A stretch of DNA of 40,116 bases from an uncultured Candidatus Saccharibacteria bacterium (GCA_964539855.1 CAZIJR010000001.1:1-40116); one strand, 5' to 3'; shown: positions 3,331-26,785, counted from the first letter of the stretch. Notes: generated by a model from the letters alone, not told the origin. Program-made: numbers and translations.

Positions 3331-3714
3331 ATGAAAAAGCCTTTACTAATCTTATTATTTTTGGTATTATTTTTAATTCCCGCTTTAGCCAGCGCCGCGG
3401 GACTAGTACCTTGCGGAGGAGCAGGAGAGCCGGTTTGTAGTATTGGATGTTTTTTTGTAATGCTTGCCAATATCTATAATTTTCTTGTAGGAAAAATTGC
3501 CCCAGCCTTAGCAATATTGGCCTTAACAATAGGTGGAATAATCCTTGTAGTTTCTGCTGGAAATCCAAGCGCAGTGGGTTTGGGCAAAAAAATTATATAT
3601 TCTGCGATTATAGGATTAGTTTTGGTTTATTGCTCATGGCTGATTATAAACGTAATTTTAACAACCATCGGGTTTAATTTGGGATCATGGTTTAACCCAA
3701 ATATGAGCTGTTAA
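3331..3714 (+). CDS. small secreted VirB2/TrbC-like 'T4SS pilin' type protein (signal peptide, Cys motif, two-TM hairpin)
   Basis: Signal peptide ending ALASAA, then GLVPCGGAGEPVCSIGC. Two hydrophobic helices (ALAILALTIGGIILVV and AIIGLVLVYCSWLIINVIL) are joined by a short basic loop, an architecture typical of small CPR pilin-like proteins. Confidence 0.65.
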   Translation: MKKPLLILLFLVLFLIPALASAAGLVPCGGAGEPVCSIGCFFVMLANIYNFLVGKIAPALAILALTIGGIILVVSAGNPSAVGLGKKIIYSAIIGLVLVYCSWLIINVILTTIGFNLGSWFNPNMSC

Positions 3715-13503: not shown

Positions 13504-13519
13504 AAATAATTACAAACCC

Positions 13520-14113
13520 ATGGAAGAACAAAAAAATAACATCCGCGTTCTTTTATCAGATAAGGCAGAACTTATTCTTGGCGAAATACTAAAGAATTTT
13601 GGTTTGGAAGATAAAAATGTTATTGTGGACCGCATTATAAAAAACTTTGCGCGGGAAAACCTATCTGAGAATAGCCTAGTTAACTCTCTGCAAAAGGACT
13701 TGGAAGTCACCCAGCAAATGGCCACTGATGTTGCAAAAGAACTTATAAGCAAAGTTATGCCGTTATTAGAAAAATATCCGGAAGAAAAATTTAGCGACCC
13801 TGTTTTTAGAGAGCAGGTTTCAGAAAAACTTTTTGGTCCTGAAAAAAAGGAAAATAAAACCAAACCAGAAGACATTTTTTCTAAAATAAAAACGCCGATA
13901 GGCGTGGAAAATGCCTTGCAGAAAAAACAATCAAATCCTCCTGAAGCAAAGACTATAGAATCTCCGCAAGACGAAAAGATTGTTGCTCCTGCGCCAAAAA
14001 GAAAATCGCGATTGCCACGTAAGCCAGCTACTAAAACTACTAAAGAATCCGTGTCAGAACAACCCAAAAAACAAAACAGTGGGCCAGACAAATATAGGGA
14101 ACCCATAGGATAA
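13520..14113 (+). CDS. hypothetical protein with a K/E/P-rich, probably disordered C-terminal half
   Basis: 197-aa ORF. The overlapping antisense ORF 13510..14148 is S/F-rich shadow and runs through the terminator hairpin. Confidence 0.6.
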   Translation: MEEQKNNIRVLLSDKAELILGEILKNFGLEDKNVIVDRIIKNFARENLSENSLVNSLQKDLEVTQQMATDVAKELISKVMPLLEKYPEEKFSDPVFREQVSEKLFGPEKKENKTKPEDIFSKIKTPIGVENALQKKQSNPPEAKTIESPQDEKIVAPAPKRKSRLPRKPATKTTKESVSEQPKKQNSGPDKYREPIG

Positions 14114-14130
14114 TAATTTTTTGTAAATAA

Positions 14131-14166
14131 AGAGGGGAGTGGTCTCATGTGAGACCACTCCCCTTT
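14131..14166. terminator. long bidirectional terminator hairpin between convergent genes
   Basis: agaGGGGAGTGGTCTCa-tg-tGAGACCACTCCCCttt: a stem of about 15-17 bp (the two innermost pairs close a 2-nt turn and probably stay open), with T-rich runs on both strands. Confidence 0.8.
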
Positions 14167-15505: not shown

Positions 15506-15913
15506 ATGGAAAGATATCCTATACCACAGTTTATTGAACAAGAAGGAAAAATTGCTTTCTTTATTTCCTTCAGACAATTTTTTTACCTTGTTGGGGCAGG
15601 AGTGGTTTGTTTTCTATTATATTACGTTTTGCCGTTTTTCCTTTTTGTTGTCATAAGCATTGCAATTTTTGGAGGAGCTGTTGCTTTGGCTTTTGTGACT
15701 ATAAATGGAGTCCCCGTACTAAATATGATTTTGGGTTCTATAGGTTTTGCAGTGGGAGGTAAAAATTACACATGGAAAAAGAAAGAATCTCCTTATCCTT
15801 TCAAACCTATATCCAGAACTAAAATAAAAAAATTAGATCAAGGTCCTGTTTTACAAGCGCAGAAAAGCCAGCTGAGAAAAATGCAAACAAAAGTTGAAAC
15901 ACAAGAAAAATAA
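15506..15913 (+). CDS. PrgI-family / VirB3-like small membrane protein
   Basis: N-terminal ...IPQFIEQEGKIAFFISFRQFFYLVGAGVV... followed by two TM helices, located immediately upstream of the VirB4 homolog as in Gram-positive T4SS loci. Confidence 0.55.
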   Translation: MERYPIPQFIEQEGKIAFFISFRQFFYLVGAGVVCFLLYYVLPFFLFVVISIAIFGGAVALAFVTINGVPVLNMILGSIGFAVGGKNYTWKKKESPYPFKPISRTKIKKLDQGPVLQAQKSQLRKMQTKVETQEK

Positions 15914-15916
15914 ATT

Positions 15917-16594
15917 ATGGCCGAATCCGCAACACAACAATTTTTGGAAATACAAGATATAAGAGAGGGGGTTTTGTTGCTAAAAAATAACCAGATAAGG
16001 GGAGTTTTGATGGTCTCTTCTATAAATTTTGCTTTAAAATCAGAGGATGAACAAACTGCCATTATTTATGCTTTCCAAAGCTTTTTAAACTCTTTAGATT
16101 TTTCATGCCAGATTGTAATCCAATCCAGAAATATAAATATAACTCCGTACCTGGACAGCTTAAAAGATTTGGAGGAAAGGCAGCCTAATGAATTACTAAG
16201 AGAACAAACCAAATCTTACCGCGAGTTTATAAAAAATATGGTAGTAGGGGATACTGTTATGACCAAAAACTTTTATGTGGTAGTGCCTTACAACTTGATG
16301 GAAGTTTTTGGAATGAAGGGCGCTGGAAAACAATTTAATTTTTTAAAACAATTTTCAGGAGGACAAAACGGACCCGGAGGCACTCCACAGCCCATGAAGG
16401 ATGATGATTTTCAAAGATGTAAAACCCAGCTTTGGCAAAGAATGGAATATCTGGCCATGGGGTTACGAAGGTGCGGGCTAGAAGCAATGCCTTTGACCAC
16501 CCCCGAGCTTATAGAACTTTTTTGGGCAATACATCATCCCGAGCAAGCAGAAGTGGGATACTACCCAGAAATTTTACCCGAACTATTAAAATAA
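15917..16594 (+). CDS. VirB4 N-terminal region (CagE/TrbE/VirB-like) encoded as a separate ORF
   Basis: QQFLEIQDIREGVLLLKNNQIRGVLMVSSINFALKSEDEQTAIIYAFQSFLNSLDFSCQIVIQS follows the pattern at the start of Gram-positive VirB4 homologs. The ORF is in the same frame as the next ORF, separated by TAA ACT. Confidence 0.5.
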   Translation: MAESATQQFLEIQDIREGVLLLKNNQIRGVLMVSSINFALKSEDEQTAIIYAFQSFLNSLDFSCQIVIQSRNINITPYLDSLKDLEERQPNELLREQTKSYREFIKNMVVGDTVMTKNFYVVVPYNLMEVFGMKGAGKQFNFLKQFSGGQNGPGGTPQPMKDDDFQRCKTQLWQRMEYLAMGLRRCGLEAMPLTTPELIELFWAIHHPEQAEVGYYPEILPELLK

Positions 16595-16597: not shown

Positions 16598-18409
16598 ATG
16601 GCTTTAGATTTTTTAAACAATCTTTTTGGAAAAAAACAGGAAAATCTGGCTGACAATAAAATCTTCGAGGAAGAACAATTTGATGTAAGAGATATTATTG
16701 CCCCACCATATATTGGAGTAATGCAAGACAAAATAAAACTTGGCGAAAGGTTTGCCAAATCGTTTTTTGTATTTTCCTATCCCAGGTATTTAAATACCGG
16801 CTGGTTCTCGCCCGTAATTGATTTAAACACTCCAATGGATATTTCCTTTTTTATACATCCTGTAAGTTCAGAACTTATTTTAAAAAAATTAAGAAAAAAG
16901 GTAACCGAGGTTTCTTCAGAAATAATGGAAAGAGAAGAAAAGGGATTAATCAGAGACCCTGCGCTACAAACAGCCTACCAAGATATTGAAGCTCTTCGCG
17001 ACAATTTAATGACGGCCCAAGAAAAAATGTTTCGCTTTGGGGTTTACATCACAATTTATGAAAACTCCGAAAAAGAATTGCGCGACACAGAACTTACTTT
17101 AAGATCAATTTTTGAATCCAGACTAATTTACATCAAACCGGCTTTATTTAAACAAAAGGAAGGATTTATTTCCTGCAGCCCTTATGGCATGGACTTAATA
17201 GATGTACACACTCCCATGGACACGGCTCCACTTTCCACTTCTTTCCCTTTTATTTCCTTTGATTTAAGCTCTAATGAAGGAATTTTATATGGAATAAACA
17301 GGCACAATAATTCTTTGGTTTTGTTTGACAGGTTTAGTTTGGAAAACGCCAATATGGTTTGTTTTGCAAAATCAGGCTCAGGAAAATCTTACGCAATAAA
17401 ACTAGAAATTTTAAGATACTTGATGCAGGGGGTAGATGTAATTGTTATTGACCCTGAAAATGAATATGAATTTTTGGCTGATGCTGTGGGTGGAGCGTTC
17501 TTTAAAATTTCTTTGACTTCCCAAAATCACGTTAATCCTTTCGACTTACCCATTCCCGGTCCCGACGATAATCCTGATGACATTTTAAGGTCAAATATTA
17601 TAAACTTAGTGGGACTTTTAAGAATTATGCTGGGCGGATTGAGCGCGGAAGAAGACAGCGTTTTAGACGAAGCACTATCTGAAACCTATGCTGTTAGAGA
17701 TATAACCGGACAATCAGATCCAAAAACCTGGCAAAATAATATTCCCTTAATGTCTGACTTTGAAGAAATTTTAGAAAGCATGACAGGGACTGAATCATTA
17801 GTAAAAAGAATAAAAAAATATACAAAAGGAACTTTTTCCGATTTTTTCAACCAACACTCAAATATTTCCATAGACAAAAGCTTTGCTGTTTTTGGAATAA
17901 GAGACATGGAAGACTCTCTAAGACCCATTGCGCTTTATATTATTATGCGTCATGTCTGGAATACTGTTAGAACACAGCTAAAAAAGAGAATTTTGGTTAT
18001 TGACGAGGCGTGGTGGCTTATGCAGTCAGATGACGGAGCATCGTTTTTGTTTGGAATGGCAAAACGAGGTAGAAAATACTGGCTAGGGCTTACCACAATA
18101 ACCCAGAACGTCTCTGACTTTATGGGTTCAGATTACGGAAGAGCAATTATTACCAACTCTTCACTTCAACTTTTAATGAAGCAATCTACTGGTGATATTG
18201 AGCTCGTACAAAAAACTTTCAACTTAACAGAACAAGAAAAATATTTGCTTCTTGAAGCTGCTGTGGGTGAGGGTTTATTTTTTGCGGGAAGAAAACACGT
18301 GGCAATTTCTGTAGTTGCCAGCCAGACAGAAAATGAAATTATAACCACAAGTCCCGCAGAGGTCTTAAAAATGAGAGAAGACAAAAGAAAGCTCTCTGAA
18401 AATATATAA
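16598..18409 (+). CDS. VirB4-family T4SS ATPase (middle and ATPase domains)
   Basis: Walker A in FAKSGSGKSYAIK and Walker B in RILVIDEAWWL. Also ...ITQNVSDF... and the VirB4-type region upstream of the P-loop (FAKSFFVFSYPRYLNTGW...). Confidence 0.85.
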   Translation: MALDFLNNLFGKKQENLADNKIFEEEQFDVRDIIAPPYIGVMQDKIKLGERFAKSFFVFSYPRYLNTGWFSPVIDLNTPMDISFFIHPVSSELILKKLRKKVTEVSSEIMEREEKGLIRDPALQTAYQDIEALRDNLMTAQEKMFRFGVYITIYENSEKELRDTELTLRSIFESRLIYIKPALFKQKEGFISCSPYGMDLIDVHTPMDTAPLSTSFPFISFDLSSNEGILYGINRHNNSLVLFDRFSLENANMVCFAKSGSGKSYAIKLEILRYLMQGVDVIVIDPENEYEFLADAVGGAFFKISLTSQNHVNPFDLPIPGPDDNPDDILRSNIINLVGLLRIMLGGLSAEEDSVLDEALSETYAVRDITGQSDPKTWQNNIPLMSDFEEILESMTGTESLVKRIKKYTKGTFSDFFNQHSNISIDKSFAVFGIRDMEDSLRPIALYIIMRHVWNTVRTQLKKRILVIDEAWWLMQSDDGASFLFGMAKRGRKYWLGLTTITQNVSDFMGSDYGRAIITNSSLQLLMKQSTGDIELVQKTFNLTEQEKYLLLEAAVGEGLFFAGRKHVAISVVASQTENEIITTSPAEVLKMREDKRKLSENI

Positions 18410-18425: not shown

Positions 18426-21400
18426 ATGCTAAAAAAAACAAAAATAAAAACTTTTTTGCAGCTGGCTGTTGTTAGCTTGTTTTTGACTACCGCAAAATTC
18501 GCGCATGCTCTTGAAGCAAGTTATCCTACAATATTTGGCCTGTCTTTGGGCGACAGCCCTTCGCTTCCCGAATATGCAAAATACTTTTTTAATATTGGCA
18601 TAATCTCAGCGGGAATTTTGGCCGCTCTAGTAATTGCGTTTGGCGGAATTTATTATTTAGTAGATTTTGGCAGGGGAAAGTTCAAAAGCGAAGGAATGGA
18701 GTGGATAAAAGCTGGCACGCTCGGACTTTTGCTTATAATGTGTGCCTACTTAATTGTTTACACTATAAACCCCTACTTGGTTATTTTTGATTTGAAAGGA
18801 CTGGCCCCTCTTGCCTTTCTTTCCAATTTATTTAGCTCTCCGTCATCTTCTCTGCCAGTTGAAGTTTATACAGAAATACCCATAGGAATATTGACTGAAA
18901 ACCTTTTAACCCGAACTATGGACTGCTATAATTTTGACGGCAATGGCGACCCTATTGAAGGAGAGCCCCTAACCGTAGACGATGGTAGAAAATTATACGG
19001 CCCCACCTATTTAAAACACGACCAGGCAGACTGCTTCTTAAAGCTGGCTGAGGCTATTGAAAAAAAGTCAGACATAGCCAACCAATTATCAATAAAAATT
19101 GCCGAGTTAATGCAACAATGCCAATGTTCTGAAGGCACTTGCGATACGCAATGGAACTCTAAATGCCCGGAAAAGCCACCTTGCAACAAGGCCAAAGGTA
19201 TATGCAAGCCCATTTTAGATGAAAGTTGCTGTCCTGCTGACGTAAAAAAACAAATTGAGGAGGGCCTCATAACTCTTGACCAAAATGAGGGAGGGACTTC
19301 CTGCCCGGGCTCTGAGAAAAAATATACGGGCCTAGAAGAATTTAGGTCAAAACAATTTGGTAGTAACTATTTTGCTATAAAAACTTTTGTAGAGATTCAA
19401 CCTCCAGCGAAAGTAAACGGTAAAGATATCTGGATAATAAATAACGGGAATTGCCAAGTCTGCATTTATAATTGCCCGGCAACATGCACGGAAGGTGATA
19501 ACCAGTGTTTAAATAAAAAACAAAACTGTGAAGAGCAACAATCAGAATGCCTAGTAGGAAGACAAAAATGCCTACAAAAAAACAGCCCTTGGTATAAATT
19601 AAAACTTATAGACCAGCTCACATATCTTAGAGGACGAGCCGAAGAAATAAAACAAAAAGTTCAGCAAGACATAAATAATTTAACAAGCGCTGAAGACTTA
19701 TTGGGAAAATGTTACTTGGCAGACGCTTATGTAGATTTTTTTAAGGTGTACGAAAAAACCGATAAAAAAGAAAAAACTATCCTTGTTCAAAAAACCTTTT
19801 CGGACCCGGAAACTCAAAAAATTGTTAATCCTGCCAAGTATTGCGAAGGTTTCCAATATAATAATTCAAGCTGTTATAGTCAATGTCAAAAAGTTTGTCC
19901 TGGTACGAGCAGTCAAGAAGTTGGTTATTACAAAAAAGCTCAGAGTTGCAATAATATAGCTCTAAAAGAAAGACAAAAGTGTCTGGAGCAACAGGCAAAA
20001 TATATAAAAGAAATTTATGACAATCGCTCGTGCATTGCAGGCGCTAGCCCTTTCAAAACTTTTCCCGAGTGTATGGATAACTGTAACCAAAATTGCTTGA
20101 GTTCTTGTGAAAAATCCTGCCTAAGCGCCGAAGAACTAAAAAAATGCCAGGATAAATGCAACAATGATTCAAAATGCCTGCTGGACAATGAAGACAAATG
20201 CCTAATAAACTTTAACAGGCTAAAAGATTGCTCTGATTCCACAGCCTGTGTTGCAGGATGCAGTGGCGATAATGACTGCATACAAAAATGTAATGTCCAA
20301 TATAATGACATTAATTTTGTAAAAAATTGCATAGAAAATTCTGCCTCACTTTGCACTTATTGTTCAGACCAGTATGCTGGTTATCCTGAATGCCTAACGC
20401 CTTCATATTATAATCAGGGCAACTATTCTTCCTCTTTTTTGTGTAGTGATCCTAATTCCCAGCTCTGCAAATATGGAATTACAACAACAGATGTAAATGG
20501 AAATACAGTTAGCCAAACCGCTGATAGTTGCACGGTTCAAAACCTGGAAACTTCAAAATGTCCAGTAAACTCTAAATGCCCAGAATGCCCGTGCGACATC
20601 GTCAGCGACCAGCCTACAGAAAACAGTTATGCTGGTCAAACAGAAGAACCAACGGGCACAGATTGCTCTGATGCAAATAAAAACAACGGAGAAGACACAG
20701 CATACAGGGTGTGCAGCCCGACTTGTGACAACTACGCTTTTAATGATGACCCATTAACCTTTTACTGTAATCAAACCTGGTGGAAAAAAGATGAAACAAA
20801 AAATACAGAACCTCTTGGAAGTTCAAAAATCTGCCCTAAAAATAAAGAAATACCTGTAGGCAGGACCGTGGACGATGCAGAAGCCTGGGGACAAGCATTT
20901 ATGCAAGTCATAAATGATTTTACCCAAAAAGCAGACGAAATGATAAATTATATTAAAAAAATTGGGGATGAAAAAAAATACTGTCAGTGCGACAGCACTT
21001 GCGGAGGGTCAGAACTTGTTTGCAAACCAGAATGCGAAGACTTTACAGTTTTTGATGAAGATAACAAAAAAATTGGGGAAGGTTGTGCTCAAAGTCCATG
21101 TTCGGGAAATCCTTGCCAAAAAATGATCAATCTTCTTTTAGGAAAAGAGGCGGGAAATGAATTTACAGACAACGACCCAGATGCTTGTCCAGCAGGACAA
21201 AATAGCGGATTTGAAGGCGTAAATTGGTATTTAGAACAAGTAAAAGATGGACTTAAAGAAGTAGAAGATTTTGTGCTAAAAGACAAAAGATCAGACATAT
21301 TAAAGGAACTTGAATATTCACGACAAGGCATAAATACTTGCAGTACAAACTATGACAAAGAAACAAGTATTTTAAGCTGTACAAGAGTGGAAGATGAAAT

Positions 21401-21551
21401 TATGCCACCCTTGATAGCAACTTCAAACCCGGCTAAAACAATTGTTGGCACAAATAAACCTGTAGCTTCATATTGCTACGGACAAGAGTTGGGAAAAATA
21501 TTAGGCACAGAACCTTTGGCCGACAATTGGTTTTGCTGTCAAACAAAATAA
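18426..21551 (+). CDS. giant cysteine-rich surface protein with an N-terminal VirB2-like (pilin-type) membrane hairpin
   Basis: Signal peptide (..FAHA|LEASYP), LPEYAKYFF, and two TM helices ending in YTINPYL. About 900 aa follow, holding nearly all of the protein's about 72 Cys by my hand count (CxC and CxxxC clusters). Confidence 0.7.
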   Translation: MLKKTKIKTFLQLAVVSLFLTTAKFAHALEASYPTIFGLSLGDSPSLPEYAKYFFNIGIISAGILAALVIAFGGIYYLVDFGRGKFKSEGMEWIKAGTLGLLLIMCAYLIVYTINPYLVIFDLKGLAPLAFLSNLFSSPSSSLPVEVYTEIPIGILTENLLTRTMDCYNFDGNGDPIEGEPLTVDDGRKLYGPTYLKHDQADCFLKLAEAIEKKSDIANQLSIKIAELMQQCQCSEGTCDTQWNSKCPEKPPCNKAKGICKPILDESCCPADVKKQIEEGLITLDQNEGGTSCPGSEKKYTGLEEFRSKQFGSNYFAIKTFVEIQPPAKVNGKDIWIINNGNCQVCIYNCPATCTEGDNQCLNKKQNCEEQQSECLVGRQKCLQKNSPWYKLKLIDQLTYLRGRAEEIKQKVQQDINNLTSAEDLLGKCYLADAYVDFFKVYEKTDKKEKTILVQKTFSDPETQKIVNPAKYCEGFQYNNSSCYSQCQKVCPGTSSQEVGYYKKAQSCNNIALKERQKCLEQQAKYIKEIYDNRSCIAGASPFKTFPECMDNCNQNCLSSCEKSCLSAEELKKCQDKCNNDSKCLLDNEDKCLINFNRLKDCSDSTACVAGCSGDNDCIQKCNVQYNDINFVKNCIENSASLCTYCSDQYAGYPECLTPSYYNQGNYSSSFLCSDPNSQLCKYGITTTDVNGNTVSQTADSCTVQNLETSKCPVNSKCPECPCDIVSDQPTENSYAGQTEEPTGTDCSDANKNNGEDTAYRVCSPTCDNYAFNDDPLTFYCNQTWWKKDETKNTEPLGSSKICPKNKEIPVGRTVDDAEAWGQAFMQVINDFTQKADEMINYIKKIGDEKKYCQCDSTCGGSELVCKPECEDFTVFDEDNKKIGEGCAQSPCSGNPCQKMINLLLGKEAGNEFTDNDPDACPAGQNSGFEGVNWYLEQVKDGLKEVEDFVLKDKRSDILKELEYSRQGINTCSTNYDKETSILSCTRVEDEIMPPLIATSNPAKTIVGTNKPVASYCYGQELGKILGTEPLADNWFCCQTK

Positions 21552-21568: not shown

Positions 21569-23017
21569 ATGTTCAAAAAATTTAAGCGCGTAATAATATC
21601 CCTTATAATTATTTTATTCTTTTTTGGTGCTCACTCCGCGCTTGCGCTTGAAAGAAAATATCCTTCACTTCCCATGATAGGAAGTCCAGAAAATTGCACT
21701 GGAAGCGGGTGTTTGCCTTTGTTTGTTTCATATTGGTTTACATTAGCCATTATTGCGGCTTGTATTTTAGCGCTTATCTCTTTTACGGTTGGAGCTATTG
21801 GGCTAATAAACCCGAATCCAGACTCTCACAATAATGCCAAAGATAGAATGAAGGGCTCTATTTTGGGGCTGGTTCTGTGCCTTTCAGCCTTAATATTATT
21901 ACAAACTATAAACCCAAATATCGTGGGCCTGCAACTGACCCCTTTGCCAGGCGCTCCTGGGATTTATTATGCCAAGGGGAGTGAACTGACAGCTGTCGCT
22001 TTTTCTGTGAATGATTTTACCAACTCCCAGGCGCGCCAAGACGGCTACAACGCAATAAAATACAAGTGTAGCGCAGAAGGCGGAGGAACAGGACCCAATC
22101 TTTTGATTTGGAAATTCCCCAATCCCGGACTCGAAGGAAATAACGACTTAAACAGTGTCACTATGGCGGTAAAAAGTTGTGGTCAATCAGAACCACTTGG
22201 AGGCGTAGGATCATTTAAAATGGCCTTTGAAGCTCCTGGCGTATATTATTATGCCAACACAGGATGTTCTGGCTATATGTCTTATGCAAACACCTCAACC
22301 CAAAATTCAATATCAGCTCCTTTTATAGGTGTGATAAAATCAGTAAAAATTGTTAACGACCCGGAAAACAATGATTATTACGGTGCTATTTTTCACGGAG
22401 TACCGGATGCCTCAAAGGGCAGCGATTGCACCAACCCAATTTTCACTGCCGACGGCGGTTGTAAAAATTTATCTGACTATTTGCTTTCTCCTAATTTTGG
22501 TGCATTTTCCGCCAACATCTTTAAATGGGCGAAAAACAAATCTTCCTCATCGGGAGATGGAGTTTGGTTTTACAGCGACAGCAACGGCTGGGACAGCGGA
22601 AACAAATCTGGGGTATTTTATATAAATTCACAAAATATTGGTACCTACGCATCCCAAAAAGCCGCGGATTTAAAGTTTAATTATGCGGGGGTTGATAGCG
22701 CCCAAGCCATAACCTGTACTTCTTATCCTTCGTGCAGGGATATTGATTGGGAAAATAATGAGTATCCAGATTGTTGTGGATGCTCTTCGCCAAAAGATTG
22801 GAGCGCTGGAGAGGGCAACAAGTGTGCAGGATCTATAAAGTTTGGGGGGAACGGATATTTAGTAAGTCTTTATATTACTTATAGCGATATAGACGGCAAT
22901 GACAGATTGTTTTGCCAAACCTTTGAAAAAGATACTCCCAACCTAAGCACGGCATGGTCTGCTTCTCCTGGAGGCGCAGAATTAGACCACATTGATATAA
23001 TTCCAATAGTTCAATAA
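21569..23017 (+). CDS. pilin-hairpin fusion protein, paralog 1
   Basis: Signal peptide (ALA|LERKYPSLP), a two-TM hairpin ending QTINPNI, PLPG, then about 360 aa extracellular. C-terminus ...HIDIIPIVQ. Confidence 0.7.
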   Translation: MFKKFKRVIISLIIILFFFGAHSALALERKYPSLPMIGSPENCTGSGCLPLFVSYWFTLAIIAACILALISFTVGAIGLINPNPDSHNNAKDRMKGSILGLVLCLSALILLQTINPNIVGLQLTPLPGAPGIYYAKGSELTAVAFSVNDFTNSQARQDGYNAIKYKCSAEGGGTGPNLLIWKFPNPGLEGNNDLNSVTMAVKSCGQSEPLGGVGSFKMAFEAPGVYYYANTGCSGYMSYANTSTQNSISAPFIGVIKSVKIVNDPENNDYYGAIFHGVPDASKGSDCTNPIFTADGGCKNLSDYLLSPNFGAFSANIFKWAKNKSSSSGDGVWFYSDSNGWDSGNKSGVFYINSQNIGTYASQKAADLKFNYAGVDSAQAITCTSYPSCRDIDWENNEYPDCCGCSSPKDWSAGEGNKCAGSIKFGGNGYLVSLYITYSDIDGNDRLFCQTFEKDTPNLSTAWSASPGGAELDHIDIIPIVQ

Positions 23018-23034
23018 TAAAACCACTTATAAAA

Positions 23035-24372
23035 GTGCATAAAAACTATTATAAACATTTTGCTTTTCTGTATACTACCGTTTTGCTGTTTTTTTTGAAC
23101 AGTTCCTTTGCTTTTGCGCTTGAAACAACTTACCCTTCTTTGCCTGGATTTCCGGCAGTTACAGATAAAAGCAATCTACCAGAGTATGTTGCCTATTTTT
23201 TTGGATTGGCAATAGCAGTAGCTGCAATTTTAGCCGTTATCTTTTTAGCAATAGGTGGGCTACGATTAATAACGTCTATAAGCAGTCCTTCTGCCCATAC
23301 TGACGCGTGGAATACGATAAAGGGCGCTATCTTAGGGTTATTATTATTAATGGCTGCTTTCTTAATTTTGCGAACAATAAATCCTGATTTTATAGAGCCC
23401 GTTTTAACTCCTTTGCCTGATGTTGATGGAATTTTTTACTATGATGGAACCAATAAACTGCCCTCCCCTATGTCAGAATCAAATACGCGCAATGTGCCCG
23501 AAGGGTATGACCGGTTAATTTATGTATGTAGTTCTGGTCCATCTTTGTTTGTATGGAAGTTTCCTGAAACAAATTTTCAAGGGATTGATGGCGCCTACAC
23601 ACAAGCTATAAACTGCGGAGATTCTATTAATATTACAGATGCCAGATCTTTTAATTTAGCGTTTGAGTCCACGGGTATTTATTATTGTATGGGAGGTTGC
23701 AGTGAAACAGGGACAATATGCTCTGGGCTTATGTCTAAAACAAACACATCAAGTGGACAAATATCCGAGCCTTTTAAAAACAATGTGAAATCGGTACTGT
23801 TTGTAAACGATCCTACACAAGCTCTACAATATGGCGCTGTTTTCCATTTTTTTGATGACCCAAAGCAATCAGGTCCATGCTCTTTTATTTATAACCTAAC
23901 GAGCACAGACAAAAAAAGAAGTTGTTTTAATATGGGGAGTAGTCCTTCCTCGTCAGTTAGTGTTTTTGCTTGGAACTATAAAACCCCTGAAACATCTGGA
24001 GCGGGGGCAAACTTTTATAGTGAACCATGGGGGAATGCCGTAGGCGCCCGCGCTGGAAATTATTTTCTCAGTAGTGGCAACATAAAAAATTATTTTCATA
24101 TTCCTACTAATAAAATAATTTTTAATTATTCTGGTATTAATAGGCCCACCAACTATATCAGCCTTTACCAAAGTTTTTTGCAACGCCCAGGGTCAATTTA
24201 TTTAGAAGGAAATTACCTTTTTGTTCTAAACAATCTCATCTCTACCAACGATCATGGAGAAAAATTGTTTGTTTGCCAAATTTTTTATAGTGATATTTTT
24301 AATATAAAAGAAACTGAGTTTTTTGCAAAAGAAAATAAAATTGAAAACATTGAAATACTGCCGATAAAATAA
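23035..24372 (+). CDS. pilin-hairpin fusion protein, paralog 2 (GTG start)
   Basis: FAFA|LETTYPSLPG, LPEYVAYFF, RTINPDF, PLP. It shares WKFP, AFExxGxYY, KSVxxVNDP and YGAxFH with the preceding gene. C-terminus ...NIEILPIK. Confidence 0.7.
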   Translation: MHKNYYKHFAFLYTTVLLFFLNSSFAFALETTYPSLPGFPAVTDKSNLPEYVAYFFGLAIAVAAILAVIFLAIGGLRLITSISSPSAHTDAWNTIKGAILGLLLLMAAFLILRTINPDFIEPVLTPLPDVDGIFYYDGTNKLPSPMSESNTRNVPEGYDRLIYVCSSGPSLFVWKFPETNFQGIDGAYTQAINCGDSINITDARSFNLAFESTGIYYCMGGCSETGTICSGLMSKTNTSSGQISEPFKNNVKSVLFVNDPTQALQYGAVFHFFDDPKQSGPCSFIYNLTSTDKKRSCFNMGSSPSSSVSVFAWNYKTPETSGAGANFYSEPWGNAVGARAGNYFLSSGNIKNYFHIPTNKIIFNYSGINRPTNYISLYQSFLQRPGSIYLEGNYLFVLNNLISTNDHGEKLFVCQIFYSDIFNIKETEFFAKENKIENIEILPIK

Positions 24373-24374
24373 TT

Positions 24375-25562
24375 ATGCCAAAAAATCATACAATATCTTT
24401 TATAATTTTATTCTTTATTATATCAGCCGGGTTTTTTTTCCTGCCTCAAAATAAAGTTTTTTCCGCCGACTTACAACTTGAAGTTGCGTATCCTGTTTTG
24501 GGAACAGGAGCAAAAATAACAGCACAGTCAGATTTAACCGAATATCTAAAATATGTTTTTGACTTTGGAATAATGATAGGATTTTTCTTTGTTTTTCTTT
24601 CTTTGGCCTGGGCCGGAGCTCTTTATTTTTTATCTCCGGCAATTCCGGGAGCATTAAATGACGTAAAAGACAGGATTTCGGGCGCTATAACAGGAATGGT
24701 TATTTTAGTACTTTTGTATTTAATTATTGTAACAATAAACCCATACCTGGCTATTTTTAAGCTTGGCGAGATAGAACCCGTACCACTGCCAGAGCCTAAT
24801 ACTTCTTACCCGGGGGTTACTTTATATGAATCTGAAAATTGTTCTGGCACTTCAAACACTTACACCAACAACGTATCTGATTTGGGAAGCTTAAACAATA
24901 AGGTGCAGTCTGTAGGCATTTCACAAAACCCAGAGGAAAAGCTTTATTATATAGCTGTTTTATATGATATAAACGGTAATTGGGGAAAATGCCAATATAT
25001 AAACCCAAACAACCCTTGCGCGCCAAAAATAGATCCATTTGCCGCATCAGCTTCCATTTACCAATATGATTTTTATCCAAAAGGTGATGGCATTTACTTA
25101 TACCGCAAACCGTTTGATCAAATCCCAGGGAAAGAAGAAAATAAAAAAGGGGGATATTTAAAAATCACTAATTCCCAGATTGGTAAAGGAACTTTGCTAT
25201 ATCTTCCTAATCTGCGCTTTACGGGCATGTCTTCTAATTATAATAATTTAAGAGATTGCTCTGTTCCTGAAGAAGAGCAAGATTGCGCGAAATACGACGA
25301 AAAAGGAAAGTGTACACAAAAAGAATGTCCTAAATTATCAGAAAAAAACATATCCTCAATATATATATCAGGAGATTATCTAGTTTTGCTTGTATATTTT
25401 GCACCCGGCGACAATCCACAAGGGCCTTGGACTTATTGCCAGGCCTATGCCTCTAACAATGACGTGAACAAAGAAGGGCCGGAGCAAATAAAATGGGATG
25501 CTGTAAGGAATCAGGGGAAAGACCCGAATTGGATAGCTATTATTCCAATAAAAGAAAAATAA
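24375..25562 (+). CDS. pilin-hairpin fusion protein, paralog 3 (more divergent)
   Basis: LEVAYPVL, LTEYLKYVF, VTINPYL, PLPEP. VQSVGISQNPEEKLYYIAVLYD aligns with the KSVKIVNDPENNDYYGAIFH motif of paralog 1. C-terminus ...WIAIIPIKEK. Confidence 0.7.
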   Translation: MPKNHTISFIILFFIISAGFFFLPQNKVFSADLQLEVAYPVLGTGAKITAQSDLTEYLKYVFDFGIMIGFFFVFLSLAWAGALYFLSPAIPGALNDVKDRISGAITGMVILVLLYLIIVTINPYLAIFKLGEIEPVPLPEPNTSYPGVTLYESENCSGTSNTYTNNVSDLGSLNNKVQSVGISQNPEEKLYYIAVLYDINGNWGKCQYINPNNPCAPKIDPFAASASIYQYDFYPKGDGIYLYRKPFDQIPGKEENKKGGYLKITNSQIGKGTLLYLPNLRFTGMSSNYNNLRDCSVPEEEQDCAKYDEKGKCTQKECPKLSEKNISSIYISGDYLVLLVYFAPGDNPQGPWTYCQAYASNNDVNKEGPEQIKWDAVRNQGKDPNWIAIIPIKEK

Positions 25563-25571
25563 ACTTAAAAC

Positions 25572-25596
25572 AAAAACGGCTATACCAGCCGTTTTT
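25572..25596. terminator. bidirectional intrinsic terminator
   Basis: aaaaaCGGCT-atacc-AGCCGttttt between the convergent genes ending at 25562 (+) and 25600 (-). Confidence 0.75.
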
Positions 25597-25599
25597 GTT

Positions 25600-26073
25600 T
25601 TAGTTGGGCTTTATGATAATATGCCTGTCCAAGCCATTTCCAAGGCTCTCTGTAGAGACATCTGGCCGCTTGGAAAGCTCTGCGTGTATAATTCTTCTTT
25701 CATAAGACGGCATAGGTAAAAGATTTTTTTCCTCTTTTTTTAGTGCCACCTCATCAGCAAGTTCTTTGGCTAAATTTTTTAGATAATTTTCTTTTTTGTT
25801 TTTATAATCATTAATATCCAAGTTTAAATAAAAAATGCTTTCCATTTTATTATTTAACATCATTCTTAACAAACGCTGAATCTCAAAAAGAGTTTGGCCT
25901 CCTTGCCCAATCAAAATTTGGGGCTCCTCTATCTGAATATTCAAGTCCACAACATCTTTTTCTGCAGAATCAGTAAAAACATTAACATCCATTTTTACAA
26001 CGGGCACGGTCATTTTTGAAAAAAATTCTTCTACTGCCTCTTTTATTTTTCTTTTTTGATTTTGGTTAATCAT
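25600..26073 (-). CDS. Jag/KhpB-like RNA-binding protein (KH and R3H domains)
   Basis: ILIGQGGQTLFEIQRLLR (KH-like) and a C-terminal R3H region, YERRIIHAELS...ESLGNGLDRHIIIKP. Conserved position downstream of yidC. Confidence 0.85.
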   Translation of the reverse strand: MINQNQKRKIKEAVEEFFSKMTVPVVKMDVNVFTDSAEKDVVDLNIQIEEPQILIGQGGQTLFEIQRLLRMMLNNKMESIFYLNLDINDYKNKKENYLKNLAKELADEVALKKEEKNLLPMPSYERRIIHAELSKRPDVSTESLGNGLDRHIIIKPN

Positions 26074-26785
26074 GCTTTAATATAAAATATTGCTGGATTA
26101 TAGAAAAAATTCCACTGGCCGTCCAGTATAGCCCTAGCGCAGAGGGCAAACCTAAAAGTATTATTACTGTAAACCCTGGCAAAAAATAAACCATTTGTTT
26201 TTGCATAACTTGAGAAAAATCTGATGTTTTCCCATCTTTTTTTTTCTCTAAAGATGCTTTGGGAATCAACATTTTGGTTTGGAAATATTGCACCACCCCA
26301 GCCAAAACCGCCATGACAATATTTGCCTTAGACAAGTCTATTATGCCCAAAAACATCGGGTTTAAGTGGCCAGGGTTTAAAACAAATTGATATAAATTAA
26401 CCAACTCACTTGGATTTAAGCCGTTCCAAAAAACCCTATAAAGAGCGATTAAAATCGGGATTTGAATTAAGGACAGTAATATTCCTGAAAACGGATTTAT
26501 TTTTTCATTTTTATAAAGCTCTAAAGTTTCCTTTGCCTGTTTTTCTCTGTCGTCTTTGTATTTTTTTTGGATTTCGCTAATTCTAGGCTGTAATTTTTGT
26601 AGACTTTTTTGAGAAGTGACTGCCTTTACAGAGACTGGATAAAGTATAAACCTTATAACCAGCGTTAATGTTATAATAGCCACCCCAAAATCATTTCCCG
26701 GAATATAATCATAAAACAACACAAGAGCATTAAAAAGCGGCTGGTATAATATAATATAAAAAAAATGTATTATTGTGTCAAACAT
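26066..26785 (-). CDS. yidC: membrane protein insertase YidC (short Gram-positive/Oxa1 type)
   Basis: GVAIITLTLVIRFILYPVS...QKLQPRISEIQKKYKDDREKQAKETLELYKNEKINPFSG...IQIPILIALY is the typical YidC core. Confidence 0.93.
   Translation of the reverse strand: MFDTIIHFFYIILYQPLFNALVLFYDYIPGNDFGVAIITLTLVIRFILYPVSVKAVTSQKSLQKLQPRISEIQKKYKDDREKQAKETLELYKNEKINPFSGILLSLIQIPILIALYRVFWNGLNPSELVNLYQFVLNPGHLNPMFLGIIDLSKANIVMAVLAGVVQYFQTKMLIPKASLEKKKDGKTSDFSQVMQKQMVYFLPGFTVIILLGLPSALGLYWTASGIFSIIQQYFILKHD

What the first reader, a model, noticed from the sequence alone, without database searches (positions are those of the whole stretch)
18426..21551. 1041-aa protein with about 72 cysteines fused to a VirB2-like membrane hairpin
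After signal-peptide cleavage (FAHA|LE), the two-TM hairpin (…AGILAALVIAFGGIYYLV… and …LGLLLIMCAYLIVYTINPYL) predicts that the roughly 900-aa C-terminal region is extracellular. That region holds nearly all of the protein's about 72 Cys (about 7% of the protein by hand count), in CxC, CxxxC and CC clusters. An example is MDNCNQNCLSSCEKSCLSAEELKKCQDKCNNDSKCLLDNEDKC. A helical segment followed by a CQC motif occurs twice: ...IKIAELMQQCQCSEGTCD near residue 230 and ...YIKKIGDEKKYCQCDSTCGG near residue 855. This suggests an internal duplication. A disulfide-knotted giant domain covalently attached to a pilin-type module is not a standard T4SS component. It could be a tip or shaft adhesin, or a host-contact protein.
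Basis: partly seen in the sequence, partly recalled or inferred. Interest (0 to 1): 0.7.

Follow-up and report, generated by a model that had tools for sequence, protein, structure and literature searches.

The report
Giant disulfide-rich T4SS pilin fusion
This gene from an uncultivated ultrasmall (Patescibacteria) bacterium joins a type IV secretion pilin-type membrane hairpin to a roughly 900-residue, disulfide-stapled outer domain whose fold matches nothing known, making it a candidate surface or host-contact part of a secretion machine that is essential in related bacteria but has no known function.

Summary
ORF 18426-21551 (+) encodes 1041 aa with exactly 72 Cys (6.9% against 1.03% in the window's other ORFs), and 71 of them lie after an AxA signal peptide and a two-helix hairpin.

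The hairpin is a specific pilin-family module (Pfam PF18895), not a generic anchor. It is homologous to three downstream paralogs and to a 127-aa stand-alone pilin in the window. The positive-inside rule places the Cys-rich region outside the cell. Cysteines are far better conserved than other residues, and variable ones are gained and lost in pairs across many independent events, which indicates disulfides.

The gene sits directly after virB4 in a chromosomal, origin-proximal T4SS operon with no coupling protein or relaxase in the window. That matches the published Patescibacteria T4SS with pilin arrays. The ectodomain family (about 250 clusters at 50% identity) was found only in Ca. Staskawiczbacteria and related bins, and always fused to the module. 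A confident AlphaFold model (pLDDT 85) has no match in PDB or BFVD, and Pfam gives nothing.

The internal duplication is suggestive only. The adhesin or host-contact role is plausible but untested. I rate it a new variant of a known kind, of moderate-to-high interest.

The parts
18426..21551 (+). Whole gene: 1041-aa pilin-module protein with a Cys-rich ectodomain (stop codon included)
   Evidence: ORF; 72 Cys; 91 homologs at E<=1e-98; 247 representatives at 50% identity reach E<=1e-30
18426..18509 (+). Signal peptide, residues 1-28, with predicted cleavage at AHA|LE
   Evidence: K-rich n-region (4 K/R in residues 1-8), then a hydrophobic core and an AxA site. A28 and E30 are conserved in 86% and 98% of the family. 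The cleavage itself is inferred.
18510..18788 (+). T4SS_pilin-type (PF18895, VirB2-like) module, residues 29-121: LE..YP motif, TM helix 1, basic loop 80-96, TM helix 2 ending in the invariant TINP
   Evidence: AF2 helices 47-82 and 89-114. It is the best-conserved part of the protein (identity 0.59-0.64). PF18895 scores 17.6-19.4 bits for the target and is matched by 13 of 14 family modules. The module profile hits the paralogs and the short pilin only. hhalign against the paralog modules gives probability 99.8%, E 1e-28.
18789..18845 (+). Flexible linker, residues 122-140 (Ser/Pro-rich)
   Evidence: pLDDT below 50 for residues 123-140; low conservation, identity 0.34
18846..21548 (+). Extracellular Cys-rich ectodomain, residues 141-1041, of novel fold
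   Evidence: 71 Cys, 48 of them conserved in >=80% of the family. Pairwise coupled Cys gain and loss. AF2 pLDDT 85.4, pTM 0.81. No Foldseek match in PDB or BFVD. No match by Pfam, NCBIfam, PHROGs or PDB sequence.
18870..19406 (+). Putative repeat unit 1, residues 149-327: EIPIG motif, long helix 200-229, CQC 232/234, beta hairpin
   Evidence: hhalign aligns 201-327 with 822-955 at E 0.0011, and the EIP[IV]G motif is collinear. The score exceeds 240 of 240 shuffles, but a reversed control is close.
19452..19571 (+). Variable Cys-ladder insert, residues 343-382 (8 Cys, 3/4/7-residue spacing)
   Evidence: The outer four Cys are present in about 46% of the family and the inner four in about 34%. 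Their presence or absence is perfectly coupled in a nested way (343/346 with 375/382; 350/354 with 361/368).
19869..20405 (+).
   Evidence: A run of short helices in the AF2 model; 9 of the 14 CxxxC motifs lie here; C483-C553 and C602-C635 are coupled
20844..21290 (+). Putative repeat unit 2, residues 807-955: EIPVG motif, long helix 811-847, CQC 853/855, beta hairpin
21569..23017 (+). Paralog 1 (482 aa): pilin module plus a beta-rich ectodomain
   Evidence: PF18895 at 31.1 bits. AF2 pLDDT 88.3. The best fold match is a betagamma-crystallin, 3hz2: probability 0.98, TM 0.75, E 0.27.
23035..24372 (+). Paralog 2 (445 aa): pilin module plus an ectodomain
   Evidence: PF18895 at 28 bits; NCBIfam Mbov_0395 pilin-like at E 2e-4; module profile 81.6 bits
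24375..25562 (+). Paralog 3 (395 aa): pilin module plus an ectodomain
   Evidence: Module profile 65.5 bits; weak Pfam Crystall hit at E 0.0085
16598..18409 (+). VirB4-type ATPase, ending 16 nt before the target gene
   Evidence: NCBIfam conju_CD1110 at 356.8 bits, above its cutoff of 325; Pfam P-loop_TraG. VirB4 lies upstream on the same strand in 34 of 36 related loci.
15917..16594 (+). TrsD/TraC-like protein, equivalent to the VirB4 N-terminal domain
   Evidence: NF045975, NF041427 and NF045971 match N-terminal positions; labelled PF26593 TraC-like in syntenic loci
15506..15913 (+). PrgI (VirB3-like)
   Evidence: PF12666 at 31.5 bits
11557..13503 (+). VirB6/TrbL-like polytopic membrane protein
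   Evidence: PF04610 at 25.1 bits, just under its cutoff of 25.9; a syntenic 697-700-aa gene is present in homolog loci
3331..3714 (+). Stand-alone short pilin (127 aa), a candidate major pilin
   Evidence: PF18895 at 34.1 bits and TrbC at 19.8 bits, sub-threshold; module profile E 4e-10
25566..25602 (.). Palindromic hairpin with a 17-bp stem that closes the pilin array, between it and the convergent jag gene

Best explanation
The gene encodes a lineage-specific subunit of the chromosomal, origin-proximal type IV secretion system of a Candidatus Staskawiczbacteria (Parcubacteria, Patescibacteria) bacterium.

Shown here:
- A Sec-type signal peptide is followed by a PF18895 (VirB2-like) two-helix pilin module and a short flexible linker.
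- A roughly 900-residue ectodomain of previously unseen fold follows. It is predicted to lie outside the membrane and is held together by about 24 or more conserved disulfides, including helix-to-helix CxxxC ladders.

Inferred:
- After Sec insertion with both termini outside, the pilin module is handled by the VirB4/VirB3/VirB6 machinery in the same way as the other pilin-module proteins of the operon.
- A 900-residue head cannot fit on every subunit of a VirB2-type filament. The protein is therefore most likely a minor subunit present in one or a few copies, at the tip or at the machine-proximal end. The four ectodomain-bearing paralogs would form an adaptor or tip set, and the 127-aa pilin would form any shaft.
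- The rigid, oxidation-stabilised head serves as the surface or host-contact platform (adhesion, or envelope engagement) of a T4SS that lacks a coupling protein and a relaxase.
- In about 10% of orthologs the same scaffold carries an inserted M23-type peptidoglycan-peptidase half-domain. This suggests that the head operates at or within a cell wall.
For: ORF and Cys count.

Topology: the inter-helix loop has 4 K/R against 0-1 in each flanking segment. AF2 gives two long helices and a disordered linker at 123-140.

Pilin module:
- The family N-terminal profile hits the three paralogs (82, 66 and 49 bits) and the 127-aa PF18895 pilin (31 bits, E 4e-10). YidC, VirB6-like and PrgI all score <=2.4 bits.
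- PF18895 is matched by 13 of 14 module sequences, and some orthologs pass the Pfam threshold.
- hhalign module against module gives 99.8%.
- The module is the best-conserved part of the protein.

Disulfides:
- Cys column identity is 0.78 against 0.35, and 48 of 72 Cys are conserved in >=80% of homologs.
- Gain and loss are strictly pairwise between distant sites and repeat on independent branches: C803-C1038 share 11 of 11/13 events, C508-C519 share 15 of 15/16, C483-C553 share 3 of 3, and C646-C763 share 4 of 4/5. Control pairs share 0-2.
- CPR genomes are enriched in MdbA-like oxidoreductase and VKOR (bioRxiv 10.1101/335083).

T4SS membership:
- There is a 16-nt gap after virB4, and gaps of 2-17 nt continue through the four pilin genes.
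- VirB4 is upstream in 34 of 36 related loci, and a pilin-module gene is directly downstream in 33 of 35.
- The whole locus is syntenic in two diverged genomes.
- The locus matches the published Patescibacteria T4SS near dnaA, with pilin arrays and no relaxase (PMC12102498). Pilin arrays are essential in Southlakia (PMC10633639).

Novel fold: AF2 pLDDT 85.4 and pTM 0.81, with no match in any library.

The ectodomain is always fused to the module. M23-like inserts occur at three different sites.
Against: - Nothing here shows polymerisation, extraction from the membrane, surface exposure or binding.
- The target alone is below Pfam's PF18895 gathering score (17.6-19.4 against 26.6 bits).
- No sequence link to structurally solved VirB2/TraA pilins was found. 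PF18895's relation to VirB2 therefore rests on architecture, gene context and the literature.
- The total number of ectodomain Cys is even in only 37 of 85 family members, so not every Cys can sit in an intramolecular disulfide.
- I could not obtain model coordinates, so the co-varying Cys pairs were not checked for spatial proximity.
- The window encodes no Dsb, MdbA or VKOR enzyme.
- With only an 18-residue linker, a membrane-retained protein would sit inside the cell envelope, not at a host surface. The host-contact role therefore depends on extrusion, which is unproven.
Confidence: 0.55

Rival explanations
1. The protein is a membrane-retained structural subunit. The pilin-type hairpin never polymerises; it only docks the protein to the VirB3/VirB4/VirB6 membrane complex. 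The rigid ectodomain then forms part of the wall-spanning stalk, cap or channel of this monoderm T4SS, filling the place of the missing VirB8/9/10-type or PrgB-type parts. It does not contact a host.
For: The linker is short, about 18 residues. The hairpin is the most conserved segment, as expected for a machine-docking element. The protein is typically single-copy in each locus and sits at a fixed position next to virB4. No VirB8-like or adhesin protein was recognised in the window. Published surveys also found VirB8 and adhesins to be scarce in Patescibacteria (PMC12102498). M23-like inserts suggest activity within a wall.
Against: The same module sits on a 127-aa stand-alone pilin and on three paralogs with unrelated ectodomains. 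That looks more like a family of interchangeable filament or tip subunits than a fixed channel part. The ectodomain is restricted to one lineage, whereas the T4SS core occurs across the CPR, which is unexpected for a core structural element.
Confidence: 0.28
2. The protein is a cell-wall remodelling factor, a VirB1 analogue. The ectodomain would be, or would carry, a peptidoglycan-acting activity that opens the producer's or the host's wall for the T4SS.
For: About ten orthologs carry a Peptidase_M23 segment inserted in the ectodomain, and it retains the Y.HMD and GPHLHF (HxH) motifs. Most Patescibacteria with VirB2-like genes lack VirB1, and in Southlakia a peptidase and a lysozyme homologue downstream of virB4 are essential (PMC12102498).
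Against: The target has no M23 segment and no hydrolase match of any kind. The inserts cover only profile positions 42-87 of 96 and lack the N-terminal HxxxD zinc-ligand half. They sit at three different sites in a minority of members, so they are accessories and not the core function. A complete LysM-M23 protein is encoded separately at 8289-9419.
Confidence: 0.1
3. The cysteines are metal or cluster ligands, or redox-active thiols, making this a metalloprotein or electron-transfer protein and not a disulfide-stapled scaffold.
For: Dense CxxxC, CxxC and CxC motifs. The Cys total is odd in about half of the family. The window encodes no disulfide-forming enzyme.
Against: Variable Cys are gained and lost strictly in twos, not in threes or fours, and between sites up to 235 residues apart, on many independent branches. 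The predicted location is extracytoplasmic. His is almost absent, at 2 of 1041 residues. No metal-binding or cytochrome family matched.
Confidence: 0.04
4. The hairpin is a generic membrane anchor and the protein is an unrelated surface protein that merely lies next to the T4SS genes.
For: The target alone is below Pfam's PF18895 threshold, and no link to solved VirB2 structures was found.
Against: The module profile is specific to pilin-family proteins and ignores other membrane proteins. PF18895 is matched by 13 of 14 modules. LE..YP and TINP are invariant across paralogs. Synteny with virB4 holds in 34 of 36 loci.
Confidence: 0.03

Closest known systems
VirB2-like pilin arrays of the Patescibacteria T4SS (PF18895 T4SS_pilin; Quinonero-Coronel et al. 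2025, PMC12102498; Wang et al. 2023, PMC10633639)
   Same: Both have the same module: a signal peptide followed by a two-helix hairpin. Both form a tandem array of divergent paralogs next to virB4, prgI and trsD (28-35% identity here, against a 25% average in the paper). Both are chromosomal and close to dnaA, dnaN, rnpA and ksgA, with no relaxase or coupling protein nearby.
   Different: The papers treat these as small pilins and mention no large C-terminal domains or cysteine richness. Here the module carries a 900-residue disulfide-rich head of novel fold. In this lineage 170 of 180 module-bearing ORFs exceed 200 aa.
Canonical VirB2/TrbC/TraA conjugative pilins (PF04956) of Gram-negative T4SS
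   Same: Both have a signal peptide, two hydrophobic helices joined by a short basic loop that is predicted to be cytoplasmic before assembly, both termini outside, and a gene next to virB3/virB4. From general knowledge of F-pilus structures and of epitope fusions to F-pilin, the C-terminus faces the outside of the filament, so a C-terminal fusion is compatible with external display.
   Different: The target has no significant sequence match to PF04956, and the window's short pilin reaches only 19.8 bits against a cutoff of 27.9. There is no hit to solved pilins. Canonical pilins are 70-130 aa with no added domain. The host here is a monoderm.
Mbov_0395 / ICE_MMCAP2_0565 pilin-like conjugal transfer protein of Mycoplasma ICEs (NCBIfam NF045849)
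   Same: Paralog 2 gives a weak match in the hairpin (E 2e-4, 20.9 bits). The VirB4 here also matches the mycoplasma VirB4_plasma model (308.6 bits), which points to the same MPF-FATA-type lineage.
   Different: All these matches are below the curated cutoffs, the target itself does not match, and the Mycoplasma proteins are about 80 aa with no ectodomain.
TraN (and TraU/TraH) of F-type T4SS: Cys-rich mating-pair-stabilisation adhesin
   Same: This is a functional analogy only, from general knowledge. TraN is a T4SS-encoded, extracytoplasmic, cysteine-rich protein whose disulfides are needed for function and which contacts the recipient's surface.
   Different: No sequence or fold similarity was detected (no Pfam hit at E<=10; Foldseek PDB). 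TraN is an outer-membrane protein of diderms and is not fused to a pilin module.
Large cysteine-rich extracellular proteins of Peribacteria, another CPR lineage (Anantharaman et al. 2016, PMC4736985)
   Same: Both are large (about 1000 aa or more), carry a signal peptide, are very Cys-rich, come from CPR bacteria, and have been proposed to mediate attachment.
   Different: Those proteins were not linked to T4SS or pilin modules, and some carry integrin/FG-GAP or Myxococcus Cys-repeat similarity. The present family has no such matches and was found only in Staskawiczbacteria-type genomes.
Minor or tip pilins with large C-terminal domains in other filament systems (for example type IV pilus minor pilins and tip adhesins, and VirB5 at T-pilus tips)
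   Same: The design principle is the same: a conserved polymerisation module plus a bulky, variable, surface-exposed domain, encoded alongside a small major subunit. This is general knowledge.
   Different: These are different and unrelated polymerisation modules. A tip location for the protein described here is an inference, not an observation.

Membership tests
Pfam PF18895 T4SS_pilin | Score at or above the curated gathering threshold (26.6 bits) | tested here: not met
   The target reaches 17.6 bits as residues 1-142 and 19.4 bits as the mature module, and gives no hit at full length at E<=0.01. Orthologs P0055, P0074, P0075, P0082 and P0086, and paralogs 1 and 2, do pass.
Pfam PF18895 T4SS_pilin | Demonstrable homology to bona fide members | tested here: met
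   The family N-terminal profile hits the window's PF18895 members at E 4e-10 to 8e-26 and hits no other membrane protein. hhalign gives 99.8%, E 1e-28. 13 of 14 modules match PF18895 at E<=0.1, the best at 8e-9.
VirB2/TrbC-type T4SS pilin (functional class) | Signal peptide followed by two hydrophobic helices joined by a short basic loop, with both termini outside | tested here: met
   Hydropathy; AF2 helices 47-82 and 89-114; K/R distribution of 4 in the loop against 0-1 outside
VirB2/TrbC-type T4SS pilin (functional class) | Sequence match to PF04956 TrbC/VirB2 or to structurally solved pilins | tested here: not met
   The target has no PF04956 hit. The short paralog at 3331-3714 reaches 19.8 bits against a cutoff of 27.9. 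The module profile against PDB sequences gives a best E of 0.66, to a non-pilin.
VirB2/TrbC-type T4SS pilin (functional class) | Small size (mature protein about 70-130 aa) with no extra domain | tested here: not met
   The mature protein is about 1013 aa, with a 900-aa ectodomain
VirB2/TrbC-type T4SS pilin (functional class) | Encoded with virB3/virB4/virB6 of a T4SS | tested here: met
   PrgI, TrsD-like, VirB4 and VirB6-like genes lie upstream in the same operon. VirB4 is upstream in 34 of 36 related loci.
VirB2/TrbC-type T4SS pilin (functional class) | Extracted from the membrane and polymerised into a pilus | not testable with these tools
   Needs filament purification, cryo-ET or multimer modelling
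Patescibacteria MPF-FATA-like T4SS locus (PMC12102498) | VirB4 of the monoderm type with PrgI/VirB3, TrsD, VirB6 and VirB2-like pilin array; no relaxase or T4CP nearby; close to dnaA | tested here: met
   NCBIfam conju_CD1110 at 356.8 bits, above its cutoff. PrgI and TrbL. dnaA and dnaN at 27.5-30.2 kb. No relaxase or coupling-protein family among the window's ORFs.
Disulfide-rich extracellular domain | Cys conserved above background and gained or lost in pairs; extracytoplasmic location | tested here: met
   Caveat: the Cys total is even in only 37 of 85 members, and the bonds themselves were not observed.
Peptidase_M23 (PF01551) / VirB1-like hydrolase | M23 domain with HxxxD and HxH zinc ligands | tested here: not met
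   The target has no M23 hit. The inserts in about 10 orthologs cover profile positions 42-87 only and lack HxxxD.
TraN-type Cys-rich T4SS adhesin | Sequence or fold similarity to TraN | tested here: not met
   No Pfam hit even at E<=10. Foldseek against PDB gives a best E of 4.

The most novel reading that the evidence does not exclude
A VirB2-type pilin module is used as a covalent carrier that lets a monoderm T4SS extrude a 900-residue, roughly 24-disulfide 'armoured' head of entirely new fold. That head would be the first structural candidate for the host-contact or tip organ of the essential but functionally unexplained Patescibacteria T4SS. The neighbouring paralogs, with betagamma-crystallin-like heads, would form a modular tip set, and the lineage-specific heads would determine host range.
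Probability: 0.3. Interest if true: 0.8.

Novelty: new variant of a known kind. Interest (0 to 1): 0.58.

Why it matters
Patescibacteria make up a large share of bacterial diversity and appear to live on other microbes. Their T4SS and its pilin array are essential in the one genetically tractable representative, yet what the machine transports or touches is unknown (PMC10633639, PMC12857230).

This finding shows that, in at least one lineage, the 'pilins' are mostly carriers of large extracellular domains. One conserved member is a giant disulfide-stapled protein of unknown fold, placed directly after virB4. That gives three things:
- a concrete candidate for the part of the machine that meets the outside world;
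- a high-confidence structural model to test;
- a case where disulfide connectivity can be read from natural gain and loss of cysteine pairs.

It also cautions that surveys filtering for small VirB2-like proteins will overlook this architecture.

Tried and rejected
- Ectodomain against family libraries: Pfam at full length and in three pieces at E<=10, NCBIfam and PHROGs all gave nothing.
- PDB sequence search with the family profile: 0 hits at E<=1.
- Foldseek with the pLDDT-85 model: best E 4 against PDB and 2.4 against BFVD. The trypanosome surface-protein and helical-bundle matches were rejected as noise (TM normalised to the query <=0.08).
- tblastn of the ectodomain against 72,556 plasmids and 50,697 phages: no match. 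I therefore rejected mobile-element cargo.
- Module profile against PDB sequences, to link it to solved VirB2/TraA: only non-pilin noise.
- Promoter and terminator scans of 15.3-25.7 kb: counts not above the shuffle expectation. Only the hairpin at 25566-25602 is noteworthy.
- Cys parity test: even in 37 of 85, so it does not support 'all Cys paired'.
- First synteny count (VirB4 within 300 nt upstream) gave 18 of 36. Inspection showed one small intervening ORF in many loci, and the corrected figure is 34 of 36.
- Giant ectodomain against paralog ectodomains: unrelated, hhalign probability 0.2%.
- Dsb, MdbA or VKOR in the window: none found.
- Literature searches for Cys-rich pilin fusions in CPR or Staskawiczbacteria: nothing specific.
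- A disulfide map from the model was not possible, because the tool returns no coordinates.

Full report
OBSERVATION

The ORF at 18426..21551 (+) is real and is 1041 aa long. It contains exactly 72 cysteines (6.92%). 71 of them lie after residue 130, and the only earlier one is C106, in the second membrane helix. The other 35 ORFs of the window average 1.03% Cys, so the enrichment is far beyond chance (binomial P about 1e-35). The N-terminus has a lysine-rich n-region, a hydrophobic core and an AxA|LE site. Two hydrophobic helices follow, at about 51-82 and 93-121 by hydropathy and at 47-82 and 89-114 in the AlphaFold model.

WHAT THE N-TERMINAL HAIRPIN IS

- The three ORFs immediately downstream (21569-23017, 23035-24372, 24375-25562) share this N-terminal module at 28-35% identity. 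The residues E30, Y33-P34 (the LE..YP motif) and T113-I114-N115-P116 are invariant among the four.
- Two of those ORFs pass Pfam's threshold for PF18895 T4SS_pilin, at 31.1 and 28 bits. A stand-alone 127-aa PF18895 pilin lies at 3331-3714, at 34.1 bits.
- The target by itself is sub-threshold, at 17.6-19.4 bits against a cutoff of 26.6.
- A profile built from the N-terminal module of 87 orthologs hits the three paralogs at 82, 66 and 49 bits and the short pilin at 31 bits (E 4e-10). Every other membrane protein of the window, including YidC, VirB6-like and PrgI, scores 2.4 bits or less.
- Profile-profile comparison of the giant and paralog modules gives probability 99.8%, E 1e-28. 13 of 14 module sequences match PF18895.
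- The hairpin is the best-conserved stretch of the whole protein, with identity 0.59-0.64 against 0.35 elsewhere.

What I could not show is a direct sequence link to canonical VirB2/TrbC (PF04956) or to solved pilin structures. 'VirB2-like' rests on architecture, gene context and the literature.

TOPOLOGY AND DISULFIDES

The loop between the helices carries 4 K/R, against 0 in the mature N-tail and 1 in the 39 residues after helix 2.

Across 87 homologs, Cys columns are 78% identical against 35% for other ectodomain columns. 48 of the 72 Cys are kept in at least 80% of sequences.

The variable cysteines are gained and lost in twos, often far apart in sequence:
- C483-C553: 77 sequences with both, 10 with neither, 0 with one only.
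- C646-C763: 34 both, 51 neither, 2 single.
- C803-C1038: 70 both, 15 neither, 2 single.
- C859-C921, C508-C519 and C972-C1037 behave the same way.

On a neighbour-joining tree built from the non-Cys columns these changes recur on the same nodes. C803-C1038 share 11 of 11/13 events, C508-C519 share 15 of 15/16, C483-C553 share 3 of 3, and C646-C763 share 4 of 4/5. Control pairs among C247, C268 and C293 share 0-2 of 10-13. This is the pattern expected of disulfide partners, not of 3-4-ligand metal sites. His is nearly absent, at 2 residues.

Two optional inserts behave as nested ladders: 343/346 with 375/382 and, inside it, 350/354 with 361/368; and 608 with 622 and, inside it, 612 with 618.

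CPR genomes are reported to be enriched in MdbA-like oxidoreductases and VKOR (bioRxiv 10.1101/335083), which offers a route to oxidation. None is encoded in this window.

There are two caveats. The ectodomain Cys total is even in only 37 of 85 members, so some thiols are unpaired or intermolecular. The tool returns no coordinates, so spatial proximity was not checked.

THE ECTODOMAIN

A search of 5.8 billion proteins found 91 homologs at E<=1e-98. All are 5-8.5% Cys, and all have the same A|LE..YP start. An exhaustive profile search of 1.84 billion representatives found 247 proteins at E<=1e-30. Every full-length one aligns from profile position about 4-8 at its own residue 1-5, so the ectodomain has not been seen without the pilin module. 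The 6,764 hits at E<=1e-10 and 21,226 at E<=1e-3 probably reflect the far larger pilin-module superfamily; I did not inspect them.

Among species-representative genomes, full-length matches occur in about 50. Essentially all are Candidatus Staskawiczbacteria or unclassified Patescibacteria bins, apart from a few evidently mislabelled records. Other CPR lineages match only residues about 1-150 (lineage).

AlphaFold2 with an 82-sequence alignment gives mean pLDDT 85.4 and pTM 0.81, with a disordered linker at 123-140. The ectodomain is mixed alpha/beta with long helices (200-229, 359-428, 811-847, 932-974) and an all-alpha CxxxC-rich core at about 482-660.

Nothing resembles it. The best Foldseek E-value is 4 against PDB and 2.4 against BFVD. 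PDB sequences give no hit. Pfam, NCBIfam and PHROGs give no hit, even for pieces at E<=10. Plasmids and phages give no match. AlphaFold DB was not available.

About ten orthologs carry a half-M23 segment (profile positions 42-87 of 96). It keeps Y.HMD and GPHLHF but lacks HxxxD, and it is inserted at three different points, near query residues 237, 285 and 660. These are accessories in surface loops of a common scaffold, and the target has none.

INTERNAL DUPLICATION

The two CQC motifs are real. Each is preceded by a conserved EIP[IV]G motif and a long helix, and followed by a beta hairpin. Profile-profile alignment of residues 201-327 with 822-955 gives E 0.0011 but only 21% probability and 14% identity. 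The score of 32.9 exceeds all 120 column shuffles (mean 15.8, sd 2.9) and all 120 block shuffles of 12 columns (mean 22.1, max 32.0). A reversed control reaches 28.1. I regard the duplication as suggestive and not established.

CONTEXT

The gene starts 16 nt after a VirB4 ATPase (NCBIfam conju_CD1110, 356.8 bits, above its cutoff). Upstream of that are a TrsD/TraC-like protein, PrgI (VirB3-like), an SPFH protein on the opposite strand, and a VirB6/TrbL-like protein. The three pilin-module paralogs follow at gaps of 2-17 nt, and a hairpin with a 17-bp stem closes the array. Next come jag, yidC and rnpA, then dnaA and dnaN.

No relaxase or coupling protein was recognised among the window's ORFs.

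Synteny:
- The same gene order is found in two diverged genomes.
- Across species representatives, VirB4 lies upstream on the same strand in 34 of 36 loci, either directly or with one small ORF between.
- A pilin-module gene lies directly downstream in 33 of 35.

This is the locus type described by Quinonero-Coronel et al. 2025 (PMC12102498). They report a monoderm-type T4SS in most Patescibacteria, often near dnaA, usually without a relaxase, with arrays of 2-11 divergent VirB2-like pilins. The pilin array and T4SS are essential in Southlakia epibionticum (PMC10633639). A 2025 review speculates about a pilus acting as a conduit (PMC12857230). None of these papers mentions large or cysteine-rich pilin fusions. 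Large Cys-rich exported proteins were noted in Peribacteria, but with no link to T4SS (PMC4736985).

In the 78 loci I fetched, 180 ORFs carry the module. Only 10 are under 200 aa, 122 are 200-600 aa, and 44 are 900 aa or more with 4.7-8.3% Cys.

The ectodomain of paralog 1 is unrelated to the giant one (hhalign 0.2%). It models confidently as a beta-rich domain (pLDDT 88.3). Its best PDB match is a betagamma-crystallin: 3hz2, probability 0.98, TM 0.75 on the target, but E only 0.27. That is in line with a weak Pfam Crystall hit on paralog 3.

MECHANISM

Shown: Sec-type signal, pilin-family hairpin, flexible linker, predicted outside location, a disulfide-stabilised head of new fold, and operon membership in a relaxase-less T4SS.

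Inferred:
- The module is handled by VirB4/VirB3/VirB6 like other pilins.
- In VirB2-type filaments the C-terminus faces outward (general knowledge from F-pilus structures and from C-terminal epitope display). A 900-residue head cannot decorate every subunit, so this protein is most likely a low-copy tip subunit or machine-proximal subunit. The paralogs would be further adaptor or tip subunits, and the 127-aa pilin would be the candidate shaft.
- The head is a rigid surface or host-contact platform, and the occasional M23 inserts hint at work in or on a cell wall.

I give this composite reading a confidence of 0.55. Its identity part (pilin-module fusion, extracellular, disulfide-rich, T4SS subunit) stands at about 0.85. 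The tip or host-contact role stands at about 0.35-0.4.

The main rival, at 0.28, is a membrane-retained structural part of the wall-spanning machine. It is favoured by the short linker and by the high conservation of the hairpin. A hydrolase role (0.10), a metal or redox role (0.04) and an unrelated anchored protein (0.03) are less likely, for the reasons given under each rival.

NOVELTY AND VERDICT

The system (the Patescibacteria T4SS with pilin arrays) is known, and NCBI already labels some orthologs 'pilin'. Three things are not described in the literature I could search:
- the module serves mainly as a carrier of ectodomains in this lineage;
- one conserved member, adjacent to virB4, bears a giant, orphan-fold domain with roughly 24 disulfides;
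- its disulfide pairing can be read from natural co-variation.

I classify it as a new variant of a known kind, with interest of about 0.58. The structure and family are solid, but the function is inferred and the lineage is uncultivated.

Noticed in passing
window 21569-25562 (+): Three tandem paralogs carry the same pilin module on ectodomains unrelated to the giant one. Paralog 1 models confidently (pLDDT 88.3), and its best PDB match is a betagamma-crystallin domain (3hz2: probability 0.98, TM 0.75, but E 0.27). Paralog 3 has a weak Pfam Crystall hit. In this lineage 170 of 180 pilin-module ORFs are longer than 200 aa, so 'pilins' here are mostly domain carriers.
   Followed up: partly
homologs P0008, P0013, P0019, P0030, P0050, P0069 (for example L003:10001-13660): A half Peptidase_M23 segment is inserted into the giant ectodomain at three different positions, near query residues 237, 285 and 660. 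It keeps Y.HMD and GPHLHF (HxH) but has no HxxxD motif. This implies repeated independent insertion of the same module into surface loops. Whether it is catalytically competent is unknown.
   Followed up: partly
window 3331-3714 (+): A stand-alone 127-aa PF18895 pilin (34.1 bits; 5 Cys, with a C-terminal Cys as the last residue) is encoded about 12 kb away from the T4SS operon, next to the CCA-adding enzyme gene. It is a candidate major pilin.
   Followed up: partly
window 15917-16594 and 16598-18409 (+); L004, L029, L034, L049: VirB4 is split here into a 225-aa TrsD/TraC-like N-terminal protein and a 603-aa ATPase. In four related loci a single 1131-1270-aa ORF with a VirB4 match occupies the position, suggesting a fused form, or read-through by my simple ORF caller.
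   Followed up: no
L006, L009, L012, L015, L022, L023, L030, L033-L035, L045, L049, L051, L054 (upstream of the giant gene): In about 14 of 36 related loci one extra small ORF (114-283 aa) lies between virB4 and the giant gene. It is absent from this window and was not recognised by the pilin-module profile.
   Followed up: no
window 13510-14148 (-) versus 13520-14113 (+): Two overlapping ORFs lie on opposite strands. Syntenic loci have a 161-173-aa gene on the + strand after the VirB6-like gene, so the 197-aa + strand ORF is probably the real gene and the 212-aa - strand ORF (4.25% Cys) is probably spurious. Neither has a Pfam match.
   Followed up: partly
window 25566-25602: A perfect palindromic hairpin with a 17-bp stem and T-runs on both sides sits between the end of the pilin array and the convergent jag (KH-R3H) gene. 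It is likely a bidirectional terminator.
   Followed up: no
window 25600-30213: This is the replication-origin neighbourhood: jag, yidC and rnpA on the minus strand, then dnaA and dnaN on the plus strand. A low-GC (0.31-0.32) intergenic region at about 27115-27464 is probably oriC and may also hold rpmH. The T4SS operon ends about 2 kb from it, as reported for Paceibacteria-type genomes (PMC12102498).
   Followed up: partly
window 10365-11093 (+): An IS200-like Y1 transposase (PF01797, E 1e-7) lies between ksgA and the VirB6-like gene, overlapping the end of ksgA by 10 nt. Such elements are unusual in very small genomes.
   Followed up: no
window 8289-9419 (-) and 7888-8247 (+): A complete LysM-LysM-M23 peptidase and a DksA/TraR-type zinc-finger protein are encoded just upstream of the T4SS region. 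The LysM-M23 gene is syntenic in L003 and could provide the VirB1-like wall-opening function.
   Followed up: no
window 34133-35068 (-) and 37733-39082 (-): A ComEA-like helix-hairpin-helix protein fused to a Lamin Tail Domain, and a PilB/T2SSE-type ATPase (383.6 bits). These are parts of the competence and type IV pilus equipment typical of CPR bacteria.
   Followed up: no
target residues 141-1041 and its homologs: The number of ectodomain cysteines is odd in about half of the family (even in 37 of 85), and in the target it is 71. At least one thiol is therefore unpaired in many members, which could mean intermolecular disulfides (covalent oligomers) or a free reactive Cys. This is unexplained.
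   Followed up: partly
L021, L056, L064, L069, L072 (record titles): Some contigs with family or module matches are labelled Gammaproteobacteria, 'uncultured archaeon' or Methanoregula, and many are labelled 'uncultured Candidatus Saccharibacteria'. These are probably mis-binned or generically labelled Patescibacteria contigs and not true occurrences outside the lineage.
   Followed up: no
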